Below, in pieces: positions 30,301-33,300 of a stretch of DNA of 64,000 nucleotides (its first letter is position 1; each line of letters begins with the position of its first letter). The DNA lies in contig CM000431.1 of assembly GCA_000165345.1 (NCBI GenBank), positions 224,001 through 288,000 on the forward strand, written 5' to 3'. A program made the position numbers.

Positions 30301-33300
30301 AAAGAATACGAGTATTGAGAGAGTTCATCTGTGGATTTAGAGGTTTCAGAATAGCTAAATAACTGTCAGAGTAAGTGAATAAAATATTATGGATTTAAAA
30401 TTGGAATTTCTCAATAAAACTGAAAATAGAACAACAGGATGCAGTGTACAATGCATATTTGGCAAAATAATTCTGTTAATAGTGTCAATAATATTATTAT
30501 TAGGGCTTTTGGTTTGGATTTTCCAGGAGAAGCTACTGTTCTTTCCAAATATTAATGGGAAAAGAGACTTAGCATCAAACTTCCCAGGATACAGACATCC
30601 AAATGAGAATAAAATGAATTCAGAAGACGTAGTTTTAACTACGGATGATAATGTTAAATTATATTGCTGGTTTATAATACATAAGAAGTTTGACAGATAC
30701 TCTCATGGACAATCAAGTGCGATGCATTTTAGTTCTAATCTAACAGAACCTCATCATTCGGAACAAGTTAAAAAAGATGGTCCAGAGAAAAAGATTTTAG
30801 ATAGAATAAGAAAGGCTCCAAAATATATGAAATTCCATTTCCCTGAATTTTCAGATAGATATGAACAACAGGAAAAAGCTCCAACAATTGTCTTTTTTCA
30901 TGGTAATGCTGGCAATATTGGGCACAGACTACCTAGGTTCTTGGAGTTTTACAATTTGATCGGTGTTAATATATTTGCAGTTTCTTATAGAGGATATGGG
31001 GACAGTGAGGGGACCCCTTCTGAAGAAGGCTTTTATTTGGATGCTAAAGCTTCACTTGAGTACGTCCTTTCTAGGACTGATGTGGTGGACAAGAATATGA
31101 TCTTTTTATATGGACATTCCATTGGCGGCGCTGTTGCTATTGATCTCGCTTCTAAGTATAATGTTACTGGCGTTATTCTAGAAAATACCTTCACTAACAT
31201 TAAATCTGTTGCTTTCAGAGTTTATCCAATATTTAAGTATTTTGGATTCTTCTTCAAATTCATACAAAGACTTAAATTTGATTCAGTATCTAAAATCTCA
31301 CGTGTTAAATCCCCTATCTTATTTGTAGTTGGGAATGAGGATGAAATAATACCTCCCACACATTCTGTTGAATTATATATGAAGGCGGGATCGCCAAAAT
31401 CTTTAAAAAAAATTTATTTAGTATCAGGTGGCTCACACAATGACACATGGATTAAAGGCGGAATGGAGTTTTATTTGATGCTGCTACAATTTATATATAA
31501 TGCCATTGATTATAGTAAACCCGAATTAGAAGTATCTTCAAACAATTTGATAAACAAAAGTCAAGAAGAGACCTTATCTTCAATACAGGAAATTTTAAAA
31601 ACTAAAGAAAGTTCTCCTATAAATAAGCTAAGAAAAAAAACAAATTAAACTAATATTTTTTATAAGACTCTAATAGATTAATTAATCCGATACATTTTCT
31701 TTAAATTATTTTTTTCTTCCCTTTACTTTTTTTTTTTACATTATTTCTTCCCCTCGCATGGCGCTTCATTTTATACAAATAGTCAGAAACCTATGGATGC
31801 ATGCAATAATGTGCATGCATTCCCTATACTTGCAACATTTTATTCGTAATAAATATACAAAAGAAAGAACAAAATAAATTAATAAAATGTAAAATTTAAC
31901 AATATTAAACAATTACTTAACTTGACCCCTAAACTTTTTCTAGTTGTTCGTCATTTGAAATTAAGGCAACTTTTTCTGATGTTTCCGCTTTCATTATTTC
32001 ACATTTAGATTCTGAGCTGCTAATAAGATTATTATTTGGAAGAGGATCAACTAGCAAATTCTTTTCTCTGAATAGAAACCAAAGGAAAATAAGTAAAAGC
32101 GGATAAAATAATGTAAAAATAAAAATTAATAAACTTGGAGCTATCTTTATATGATTTTCATCGTTAAAATTGAAAAATGTATATAAACCATTTATACTTA
32201 TTGGTAGCAAGGAAAGAAATGAATTTGGAAAGAGATTTATGGCGCCAATTGCCAAAAGAATTCCAATAATATATGCATATAAATAAAGGCCATGCAATAA
32301 AAAGAATGGTTGATAAGTAGAGTAACAATCCCAAAAAACTAGAATACTTGCAATTGCATGTTTGGCTATTGCTAAAATTAGAGTTACACTTGTATTTGGG
32401 TGAGAAACCATCCAATATCCAATATTTACTATAAGTCCTGTAGGAAGTAGAAAACTTTGAATCATCCATGCATACCAACATGTCCAATTCAGATAACTTG
32501 CTTTTCCAATTATATCTTCAATTTCTGCAATATTTTTCCCATAAATATTGTCATCGATGCTTGAGCTCACTAAATTCTGCGCCTGGATTGAAACAATACT
32601 TAAAACAAGAAAATATCCTATTGTTGCAATACTGCACCAATTTGTAGTATAGTACCTTGCTAAGTTTTCAATCCTCCAAATTTTTATTTCTGTAAAAATA
32701 TCGTATAGTATAATTGTACAAAAAAATACCAGGCAAAATAGCCTGAATAAGAGTACTTTTGAATGATTAACATAAGGTAGCCAACTATTTGAGAAAATTA
32801 TTCTACAATCTCCTCTAGCTAATTTGAAATATAGTCTTGAGAATTGGAATTCCCATAGGAAAGATTTCCAATAGTCACTCAAACTTTCATTGAATTGTTC
32901 ATTTTCTAAAAATAAGTTATCTTTGATTAAATTATTTAAAGGTTTTGTTCCAAGAATACCCAATACATCATTATTTCCAATCATTACTTTTCAATTTGAT
33001 TCAATTTACGAATAATTCTATTTTTTGGAAGAGGGAGTTGTGTGATAAGGATTTTAGGGATTACACACGAATCTTTAACTTTAATTTTATATTATTTAAC
33101 TCCGGATTAAAGTTATTTTTACGATAATCATGCCATATAAAAACCAAATTAGCTTTCAATAATAAAAAAAAACTCGAATTTATGATTATTAATTTTTAGA
33201 AATTATTTAGGCCTAAAAAAAATGAAATAAAATTTATTCATTGCTCAGTCAGGCCGGAGTTAACATTACACAAAAAATTATGGCATAACACACAATAAAA

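What the first reader, a model, noticed from the sequence alone, without database searches (positions are those of the whole stretch)
31759..31819. GCATGCA/GGCGC motifs also occur in 3'-3' (convergent) intergenic regions
The same motifs occur between convergently transcribed genes where no promoter is expected: 31759-31819 (tGGCGCt ... ggaTGCATGCAataatgTGCATGCAttcc) between the BEM46-like and multi-TM genes, 39089-39105 (ttGCATGCATGCATGCg) between the Ulp1-like gene and RRP4, and 56208-56227 (TGCATGCAaatcTGCATGCA) downstream of PPCDC. Either the motifs also act as 3' elements, such as terminators or insulators, or these spacers hold unannotated transcripts such as antisense RNAs or ncRNAs.
Basis: seen in the sequence. 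Interest (0 to 1): 0.5.

Follow-up and report, generated by a model that had tools for sequence, protein, structure and literature searches.

The report
Promoter-type motifs between convergent Cryptosporidium genes
Three short gaps between tail-to-tail genes on Cryptosporidium parvum chromosome 3 hold the parasite's well-known TGCATGCA (ApiAP2) promoter motif, one gap also holding an E2F-like motif; the motifs are kept in related species, so they are real binding sites, most likely promoters for unannotated antisense RNAs of a kind already described genome-wide.

Summary
The window is C. parvum Iowa II. It holds 12 perfect TGCATGCA octamers against 0.39 expected, and six of them sit in three convergent spacers that total about 800 bp. 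GGCGCC occurs 15 times against 0.28 expected.

Both motifs are published Cryptosporidium cis-elements: AP2_1 (bound in vitro by ApiAP2 domains cgd2_3490 and cgd1_3520) and E2F/DP1.

New here: the octamer persists at the orthologous spacers in C. meleagridis, chipmunk genotype I, C. ubiquitum, C. canis and an unnamed species, where the flanks no longer align. Chance is 0.1-3% per spacer. The motifs are absent in C. ryanae and C. muris, and in C. felis except for a GGCGCC plus a CATGCA half-site in spacer 1. For spacers 2 and 3 the gap is much shorter in C. felis and C. muris, which lack the motif. Spacer 1 has the same GGCGC-to-GCATGCA pairing seen at 5' regions in the window.

I found no ORF, Rfam family or conserved RNA structure in the spacers.

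Li et al. 2021 found these two motifs to be the top motifs upstream of antisense lncRNAs that start at gene 3' ends. The likeliest reading is therefore a 3' promoter for unannotated antisense transcription. No transcript is shown for these loci. Roadblock, insulator or RNA-level roles are not excluded.

This is a known kind of element and of modest interest.

The parts
31649..31928 (.). Convergent spacer 1 (280 bp), between the BEM46-like hydrolase stop and the transmembrane-protein stop
   Evidence: ORFs and Pfam. Names from cluster members. The same gene order holds in 6 other species.
31759..31765 (.). E2F-like element tGGCGCt, imperfect in C. parvum. It is a full GGCGCC at the orthologous place in C. 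ubiquitum, C. canis and C. felis.
   Evidence: It lies 38 bp from the octamer, the same spacing as the GGCGCC/TGCATGCA pair at 35359/35397.
31798..31819 (.). Two perfect TGCATGCA octamers (31798-31805 and 31812-31819) separated by 6 bp: AP2_1 sites
   Evidence: Retained in C. meleagridis, chipmunk genotype I, C. ubiquitum and C. canis; a half-site in C. felis; absent in C. ryanae.
39037..39218 (.). Convergent spacer 2 (182 bp), between the Ulp1-like stop and the corrected RRP4/RRP40-like stop
39078..39104 (.). ACGTCA (39078-39083) followed by TGCATGCATGCATGC (39090-39104, two overlapping octamers)
   Evidence: The orthologous site is identical in C. meleagridis, one octamer in chipmunk, TGCATGCGCATGCA in C. 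canis, a TGCATG half-site in C. ubiquitum, and absent in C. felis (spacer about 45 bp) and C. ryanae.
56142..56482 (.). Convergent spacer 3 (341 bp), between the PPCDC stop and the stop of a conserved 136-aa gene
56208..56227 (.). Two perfect TGCATGCA octamers (56208-56215 and 56220-56227) separated by 4 bp, 67-86 bp past the PPCDC stop. They are flanked by a weak inverted repeat ACATGT...ACGTGT.
   Evidence: Retained in C. meleagridis (2 copies), the unnamed Logan species (1) and C. canis (1 plus two CATGCA). Absent in C. felis (202-bp spacer) and C. muris (68-bp spacer).

Best explanation
The sites are double-stranded-DNA binding sites for TGCATGCA-recognising ApiAP2 factors, joined in spacer 1 by an E2F/DP1-type site. 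They are kept by selection in the intestinal Cryptosporidium clade. By analogy with 5' promoters they would hold open a small nucleosome-free promoter region in the gap between two tail-to-tail genes. Transcription would start there in one or both directions and run antisense into the neighbouring genes' 3' ends, or give a short intergenic RNA. These would be stage-specific non-coding transcripts that current protein-gene annotation omits.

Shown here: the motifs' identity, their non-randomness, their cross-species retention, the shared E2F-plus-AP2_1 arrangement, and the absence of an ORF or structured RNA.

Inferred: factor binding in vivo, open chromatin, and the existence and direction of the transcripts.
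For: (1) Motif identity. TGCATGCA is AP2_1, bound in vitro by cgd2_3490 and cgd1_3520. [C/G]GCGC[G/C] is the E2F/DP1 motif, the most over-represented upstream motif in C. parvum (PMC3734150; PMC4117751; PMC12246861).

(2) Enrichment is 30-50 fold over shuffles and almost wholly non-coding: 1 octamer in 133 kb of genic DNA across ten orthologous loci.

(3) Retention at orthologous convergent spacers whose flanks are about 53-56% identical. The chance of one or more octamers per spacer is 0.05-3%, yet they are present in 4 of 6 other species at spacer 1, 2 of 4 tested at spacer 2 (plus near-copies in C. canis), and 3 of 4 tested at spacer 3 (absent also in the 68-bp C. muris spacer).

(4) Spacer 1 has GGCGC 38 bp from the octamer. 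Six other modules in the window show the same 11-76 bp pairing. In C. ubiquitum the order is rearranged but both elements persist, as expected for binding sites rather than neutral sequence.

(5) For spacers 2 and 3 the gap is much shorter in the species that lack the motif. Spacer 3 is 339-399 bp with the motif, against 202 bp in C. felis and 68 bp in C. muris. Spacer 2 is 158-191 bp with it, against about 45 bp in C. felis (but 165 bp in C. ryanae, which also lacks it). The motif-free convergent spacers in the window are 18, 34, 160 and 215 bp.

(6) Published genome-wide data. The same two motifs are the top motifs upstream of 396 mostly antisense lncRNAs that start at the end of the sense CDS, and many appear bidirectional (PMC7840661). 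In Toxoplasma, gCATGCa peaks about 82 nt upstream of 44% of TSSs, at the centre of the nucleosome-depleted region, and promoters initiate bidirectionally (PMC7854901). A start about 80 nt either side of the three sites would fall at or near the neighbours' stop codons.

(7) No ORF, Rfam family or conserved RNA fold offers another explanation.
Against: No transcript is demonstrated at these loci. K-mers from the spacers and adjacent gene ends are absent from the stored (truncated) lncRNA FASTA of Li et al. 2021, and most (not all) of the 11-mer motif instances at spacers 1 and 3 are absent from their upstream-motif table; spacer 2 was not checked there. My positive control also found nothing, so this is weak evidence.

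GenBank CPATCC locus tags are consecutive across spacer 1, and the tag count leaves no room for an extra gene in spacers 2 and 3. That record may not include lncRNAs.

Sporozoite ATAC-seq peaks were mostly 5' (888 of 984) and showed no AP2 motif (bioRxiv 2025.01.17.633476). If these are promoters they are probably not open in sporozoites.

Both motifs are palindromic, so sequence gives no direction.

The sites are clade-specific, absent in C. ryanae and C. muris, whereas 5' octamers upstream of CDPK1 and the condensin subunit gene (Pfam CNDH2 domains) persist to C. muris.
Confidence: 0.55

Rival explanations
1. Boundary or roadblock element. Factors bound to the paired octamers form a physical block or nucleosome-free boundary between two converging RNA polymerase II units. 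This helps termination and prevents read-through or collision in a very compact genome, as Reb1/Rap1 roadblocks do in yeast. No new transcript would be initiated.
For: The sites lie between the two stop codons. Three of the four perfect-octamer pairs in the window are in convergent spacers. In spacer 1, candidate poly(A) signals for both genes flank the motif closely: A[AG]TAAA begins 28 bp past the second octamer, and TTTAYT begins 19 bp past it for the minus-strand gene.
Against: Four of seven convergent spacers in the window, and their orthologues, have no motif, and some are only 18-34 bp. It therefore cannot be a general requirement. C. felis and C. muris manage the same gene pairs with shorter, motif-free gaps. 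The same motifs have documented promoter association. A[AG]TAAA carries little information in 25-30% GC DNA.
Confidence: 0.15
2. A 3'-located regulatory element (enhancer or silencer) for one of the flanking protein-coding genes or a nearby gene. ApiAP2 binding downstream of the gene would modulate its own 5' promoter, without producing a functional non-coding RNA.
For: The sites are conserved TF-binding motifs. Distances to the flanking genes' promoters are only 1-1.5 kb. Spacer 3's motif keeps a fixed position 42-92 bp past the PPCDC stop in four species.
Against: I found no report of downstream enhancers in Cryptosporidium in the papers read. The motif's known position is close upstream of TSSs. 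The data here do not separate this reading from the promoter reading.
Confidence: 0.15
3. An RNA-level element in the overlapping 3' UTRs. Two adjacent palindromic octamers would form a hairpin, or UGCAUG would be read by an RNA-binding protein, on both convergent mRNAs, affecting 3'-end formation or stability.
For: The pairs fold as 8-11 bp hairpins on both strands (-14.6 to -17.3 kcal/mol, z-scores -2.0 to -3.9) at spacers 1 and 3. Because the motif is a palindrome, both mRNAs would carry it.
Against: The exact sequence is conserved, not the pairing. C. ubiquitum and C. canis at spacer 1, chipmunk at spacer 2, and the Logan species at spacer 3 keep a single octamer that cannot form the hairpin. 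No compensatory changes are seen. An octamer pair outside the convergent spacers (49310/49321) folds equally well. Spacer 2's fold is not better than shuffles (z = -1.3).
Confidence: 0.07
4. Chance occurrence or neutral leftovers of sequence with no function.
For: None beyond the small number of loci (three).
Against: 12 octamers against 0.39 expected in the window. The per-spacer chance is 0.05-3%, yet the motif recurs in several species whose spacers no longer align.
Confidence: 0.01

Closest known systems
AP2_1 motif (BGCATGCAH / TGCATGCA) of Cryptosporidium and other Apicomplexa, bound by ApiAP2 domains cgd2_3490 and cgd1_3520 (orthologue PF14_0633, AP2-Sp)
   Same: Exact sequence match, often in pairs. 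Strong restriction to non-coding DNA. Co-occurrence with E2F sites.
   Different: It was described and analysed as an upstream (5') element. Here it sits between two stop codons with no annotated gene to serve.
Upstream motifs of C. parvum antisense lncRNAs (Li, Baptista, Sateriale, Striepen, Kissinger 2021, PMC7840661)
   Same: The same two motifs (E2F/DP1 and ApiAP2_1) within 100 bp upstream of lncRNAs that start at the 3' end of the sense CDS. A bidirectional character was proposed.
   Different: None of the three loci could be matched to a listed lncRNA or motif instance in the stored supplement. Cross-species retention of the motif at convergent spacers, and the link with spacer length, are shown here and I did not find them in the passages of that paper I read.
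Toxoplasma gCATGCa promoter element (Markus et al. 2021, PMC7854901)
   Same: The same core motif. It sits at the centre of the promoter's nucleosome-depleted region, about 82 nt upstream of the TSS, and initiation is inherently bidirectional.
   Different: A different genus. It was shown for 5' TSSs of protein-coding genes. Cryptosporidium adds E2F/DP1, which the other apicomplexans studied lack.
3' nucleosome-free regions in budding yeast that give rise to antisense and cryptic transcripts, and Reb1/Rap1 roadblock termination (from my own knowledge, not checked here)
   Same: A compact genome, with factor-bound gaps at gene 3' ends acting as antisense promoters and/or polymerase roadblocks.
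   Different: Unrelated factors and motifs. No chromatin or transcript data exist for these Cryptosporidium loci.

Membership tests
AP2_1 (TGCATGCA) ApiAP2 cis-element | Sequence matches the published consensus BGCATGCAH / TGCATGCA | tested here: met
   Six perfect octamers at the three sites. Consensus taken from PMC3734150.
AP2_1 (TGCATGCA) ApiAP2 cis-element | Over-represented in non-coding DNA and depleted in coding DNA | tested here: met
   12 against 0.39 expected in the window, none in genes. One octamer in 133 kb of genic DNA against 36 in 56 kb of spacers across ten orthologous loci.
AP2_1 (TGCATGCA) ApiAP2 cis-element | Retained at orthologous positions under sequence divergence (functional constraint) | tested here: met
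   Present in 2-4 other species per spacer, with a chance of 0.05-3% each. Absent in C. ryanae and C. muris, and in C. felis at spacers 2 and 3.
AP2_1 (TGCATGCA) ApiAP2 cis-element | Occupied by an ApiAP2 protein in the parasite | not testable with these tools
   Needs ChIP or CUT&RUN. Only in-vitro protein-binding-microarray data exist in the papers read.
E2F/DP1 site | Matches [A/T][C/G]GCGC[G/C][A/T] | tested here: inconclusive
   C. parvum and C. meleagridis spacer 1 have tGGCGCt, which fails the last core position. C. ubiquitum, C. canis and C. felis have a full GGCGCC at the same place. Spacers 2 and 3 have none.
Promoter of an antisense or intergenic lncRNA (Li et al. 2021 class) | E2F/DP1 and/or AP2_1 motif in a spacer next to the 3' end of a CDS | tested here: met
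   Motifs lie 54-171 bp from the flanking stop codons, except 255-275 bp from the 136-aa gene's stop.
Promoter of an antisense or intergenic lncRNA (Li et al. 2021 class) | A transcript that starts within about 100 bp of the motif | tested here: inconclusive
   No match in the stored, truncated supplement. The positive control also failed.
Structured RNA or 3' UTR hairpin element | Base-pairing conserved across species, with compensatory change | tested here: not met
   Hairpins are possible in C. parvum, but single octamers in other species cannot pair. There is no Rfam hit and no consensus fold in spacer 3.
General convergent-gene terminator or insulator | Present at most convergent gene pairs | tested here: not met
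   Three of seven convergent spacers in the window. Orthologous motif-free spacers are as short as 3-45 bp.

The most novel reading that the evidence does not exclude
Paired TGCATGCA octamers in tail-to-tail gaps are not promoters. They would be a dedicated, recently evolved boundary device of intestinal Cryptosporidium: ApiAP2 proteins bound there would stop or separate converging polymerases, possibly together with an ACGTCA/TGACGTGT-binding partner that I saw only at these 3' sites. That would give ApiAP2 factors a termination or insulation role.
Probability: 0.12. Interest if true: 0.6.

Novelty: new member of a known kind. Interest (0 to 1): 0.3.

Why it matters
Cryptosporidium has very short intergenic DNA, and about 10% of its genes have antisense transcripts of unknown function. 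Conserved promoter-type modules between convergent genes give specific small targets in non-coding DNA, so they can be mutated without touching a coding sequence. That allows a direct test of whether antisense transcription, or factor binding itself, regulates the neighbouring genes. The general phenomenon is already published, so the gain is three well-supported candidate loci and the evidence of conservation, not a new principle.

Tried and rejected
- Rfam scan of the whole window: only a tRNA at 54955-55026, nothing in the spacers.
- ORF scan of the three spacers: only 23-48-aa ORFs lying within a spacer, several reading through the motif itself (plus one 71-aa TTG ORF that mostly overlaps the 136-aa gene), and none plausible.
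- RNAalifold on the 250 bp between the spacer 3 motif and the 136-aa gene: -4.2 kcal/mol and 13 pairs, so no convincing structure.
- RNA hairpin idea: folds exist but are not conserved.
- Search of Li et al. 2021 supplements for six motif 11-mers and 18 k-mers from the spacers and adjoining gene ends, both strands: no relevant hit. A positive control using other regions of the window also found nothing, and the FASTA was truncated when stored, so absence is weak evidence.
- CPATCC locus-tag arithmetic: it suggests no extra annotated gene in the three spacers, but lncRNAs may not be in that record.
- Supplements of the CpBGF T2T paper and of the small-RNA paper are not held. Bankier et al. 2003 is not held.
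- GGCGCC at 32241 inside the transmembrane-protein CDS: it encodes Gly-Ala in a conserved AIGAI stretch and is lost in C. ubiquitum, so I treated it as coding, not regulatory.
- Mapping a C. felis 304-aa gene onto window 47.9-50.2 kb to classify the 48086 and 49310 sites: no homology found.
- TGACGT as a general motif: not enriched in the window, 4 against 5.2 expected.
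Full report
**Source and gene context**

The BEM46-like ORF at 30389-31648 is 100% identical to a C. parvum Iowa II protein. The kinase at 61974-63590 is calmodulin-domain protein kinase 1. The meleagridis orthologues carry chromosome-3 style tags. The window is about 30% GC.

Positions 358-29157 are one giant ORF. The remaining 35 kb holds about 21 protein genes and one tRNA.

**The observation**

Reading the sequence confirms every coordinate in the finding:

- Spacer 1: tGGCGCt at 31759-31765, TGCATGCA at 31798-31805 and 31812-31819.
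- Spacer 2: TGCATGCATGCATGC at 39090-39104.
- Spacer 3: TGCATGCA at 56208-56215 and 56220-56227.

Each site lies between two stop codons of genes that are conserved in order and orientation in six to seven other Cryptosporidium species. The only correction concerns the RRP4/RRP40-like gene. It ends in a short conserved last exon near 39219, so spacer 2 is 39037-39218.

Enrichment is large:

| Motif | Observed | Expected from shuffles |
|---|---|---|
| GCATGCA (strand-hits) | 30 | 2.5 |
| TGCATGCA | 12 | 0.39 |
| GGCGCC | 15 | 0.28 |

Half of the perfect octamers lie in the three convergent spacers. That is 6 in 1,230 bp of convergent spacer, against 6 in 8,119 bp of divergent spacer, 0 in tandem spacers and 0 in genes.

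**What the motifs are**

Both are published elements. TGCATGCA is the AP2_1 motif, over-represented upstream of C. parvum genes. It is bound in protein-binding microarrays by the ApiAP2 domains of cgd2_3490 and cgd1_3520 (PMC3734150; PMC4117751; PMC12246861). [C/G]GCGC[G/C] is the E2F/DP1 motif, the most abundant upstream motif in this genus.

In this window the two travel together. A GGCGC(C) lies 11-76 bp from a GCATGCA at 29435/29446, 35359/35397, 46858+46871/46934, 48055/48086, 49298/49310 and 59547/59560. Spacer 1 shows the same arrangement at 31760/31798. Spacer 1 therefore looks like any other composite promoter module. Spacers 2 and 3 have AP2_1 only.

**Conservation**

I fetched the orthologous regions from C. 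meleagridis, chipmunk genotype I, C. ubiquitum, C. canis, C. felis, C. ryanae, C. muris and one unnamed species from a public read set.

| Species | Spacer 1 | Spacer 2 | Spacer 3 |
|---|---|---|---|
| C. meleagridis | GGCGC, 1 octamer + TGCATG | same TGCATGCATGCATGC run as C. parvum (two overlapping octamers) | 2 octamers |
| chipmunk genotype I | 2 octamers | 1 octamer | not fetched |
| C. ubiquitum | octamer, GGCGCC, CATGCA (order rearranged) | TGCATG half-site | not fetched |
| C. canis | GGCGCC + octamer | TGCATGCGCATGCA | 1 octamer + 2 CATGCA |
| C. felis | GGCGCC + CATGCA | none, gap about 45 bp | none, gap 202 bp |
| C. ryanae | none | none | synteny broken |
| Logan species | not fetched | not fetched | 1 octamer |
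| C. muris | not fetched | not fetched | none, gap 68 bp |

Sources.

Outside the closest species the spacers barely align, with mean column identity of 53-56%. The chance that a dinucleotide-shuffled spacer holds one or more octamers is 0.05-3%. This rules out chance and neutral persistence.

The 3' sites are clade-specific. By contrast, the octamers upstream of CDPK1 and of the condensin subunit gene persist to C. muris.

For spacers 2 and 3 the gap is much shorter in C. felis and C. muris, which lack the motif:

- Spacer 3: 339-399 bp with the motif, against 202 bp and 68 bp without.
- Spacer 2: 158-191 bp with the motif, against about 45 bp in C. felis, though 165 bp in C. ryanae, which also lacks it.
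- Motif-free convergent spacers in the window: 18, 34, 160 and 215 bp.

This suggests that the motif-bearing gaps contain an extra functional unit. C. ryanae is an exception, with a motif-free 304-bp spacer 1 as well as the 165-bp spacer 2.

**What is not there**

- No Rfam family in the spacers.
- No credible ORF.
- No conserved RNA fold in the 250 bp beyond the spacer 3 motif.

Adjacent octamers can fold into 8-11 bp hairpins on either strand. However, several species keep only one octamer, so the sequence is conserved and the pairing is not.

**Mechanism**

Li et al. 2021 assembled 396 C. parvum lncRNAs, 92% of them antisense. [quoted passage not shown] The top two motifs within 100 bp upstream are E2F/DP1 and BGCATGCAH, and many seem to share bidirectional promoters.

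In Toxoplasma, gCATGCa lies about 82 nt upstream of 44% of TSSs, at the centre of the nucleosome-depleted region, and promoters fire in both directions. Applying that spacing to the three sites puts putative starts at or near the neighbours' stop codons.

I therefore think the most likely function is a factor-bound open region in the 3'-3' gap that launches unannotated antisense or intergenic RNA (confidence 0.55).

The steps that are shown are motif identity, selection, the shared E2F-plus-AP2_1 arrangement, and the absence of alternatives in the sequence. The steps that are inferred are binding, open chromatin, and the transcript itself.

**Evidence against, and limits**

- I could not find these loci among the published lncRNAs. 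The stored FASTA is truncated and my positive control failed too.
- GenBank CPATCC locus tags leave no room for an extra gene in the three gaps. That record may omit lncRNAs.
- Sporozoite ATAC-seq found mostly 5' peaks dominated by E2F and no AP2 motif. Any activity is probably at other stages.
- Candidate poly(A) signals flank the spacer 1 motif closely on both strands. This fits the roadblock and RNA-level rivals as well as a 3' nucleosome-free region. The signal carries little information in AT-rich DNA.

**Rivals**

| Reading | Confidence | Main point against |
|---|---|---|
| Roadblock or insulator | 0.15 | Four of seven convergent gaps lack the motif, and C. felis and C. muris do without it |
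| 3' enhancer for a neighbouring gene | 0.15 | Cannot be separated from the promoter reading here |
| RNA-level element | 0.07 | Weakened by non-conserved pairing |
| Chance | 0.01 | Refuted by enrichment and conservation |

**Novelty and verdict**

The motifs and the link between these motifs and antisense lncRNA starts at gene 3' ends are already published. What is added here is three specific, evolutionarily supported loci, their clade-specific origin, and the link with spacer length. That makes this a new member of a known kind, of modest interest (0.3).

Noticed in passing
window 39078-39083; L007 about 14461; L008 about 8728; L009 about 4797: An ACGTCA / TGACGT(GT) element lies within 25 bp of the AP2_1 octamer only at the convergent-spacer sites: spacer 2 in C. 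parvum, and spacer 3 in C. meleagridis, the Logan species and C. canis. In C. canis it forms a 14-bp perfect inverted repeat, ACGTCATTTGCATG...CATGCAAATGACGT. It never occurs at the 5' octamers in the 13 sequences examined. TGACGT itself is not enriched in the window (4 against 5.2 expected).
   Followed up: partly
window 33965-35929: A 1.9-kb 'divergent' spacer whose length is conserved in six species (1.5-2.1 kb). It carries a GGCGCC + TGCATGCA module (35359/35397) and a GCATGCA (35257) about 1.3 kb from one ATG. GenBank CPATCC tags 001058-001061 cover only two proteins here, so two non-protein genes may be annotated in this stretch. Rfam finds nothing.
   Followed up: partly
window 47924-50209: A 2.3-kb stretch with no ORF of 70 aa or more on any strand. 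It has several promoter-type modules: GGCGCC 48055 + TGCATGCA 48086; GGCGCC 49298 + a paired octamer at 49310/49321; GGCGCC at 48525 and 49933. A C. felis 304-aa gene annotated at the syntenic place has no detectable homologue here.
   Followed up: partly
window 29435-29452: A GGCGC-N6-GCATGCA module lies 280-290 bp past the stop of the giant gene and about 940 bp upstream of the BEM46-like ATG. GCATGC-type motifs (perfect octamers in all but C. meleagridis) recur at a similar place, 120-340 bp past the stop, in C. ubiquitum, C. canis, chipmunk, C. ryanae and C. meleagridis. This is far from any annotated start for such a compact genome.
   Followed up: partly
window 43881-43887: A GCATGCA, with a TGCATG 9 bp on, lies inside the 3' end of the 986-aa CDS (43695-46655, minus strand). 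It is 190 bp from that gene's stop and next to the 160-bp convergent spacer with the RNase P p29 gene. It may be a fourth 3'-end site. Orthologues were not examined.
   Followed up: no
window 121-29157: A single ORF of about 9,600 aa fills 45% of the window and contains no GCATGCA. It has a block of extreme GC skew (-0.585) and raised GC at 14-16 kb. Alternative-frame ORFs of 124-127 aa recur about every 1.9 kb (7574, 9491, 11423), which suggests long internal repeats.
   Followed up: no
window 39190-39260: The RRP4/RRP40-like gene appears to end in a short extra exon. The conserved sequence ctaagattgcgattgaatcttactccagaaac is shared with C. meleagridis, C. ubiquitum, chipmunk and C. felis. 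The simple ORF end at 39254 is therefore not the true stop.
   Followed up: partly
window 54955-55026: A tRNA gene (Rfam RF00005, 57.8 bits) lies between the Arf GTPase gene and PPCDC.
   Followed up: no
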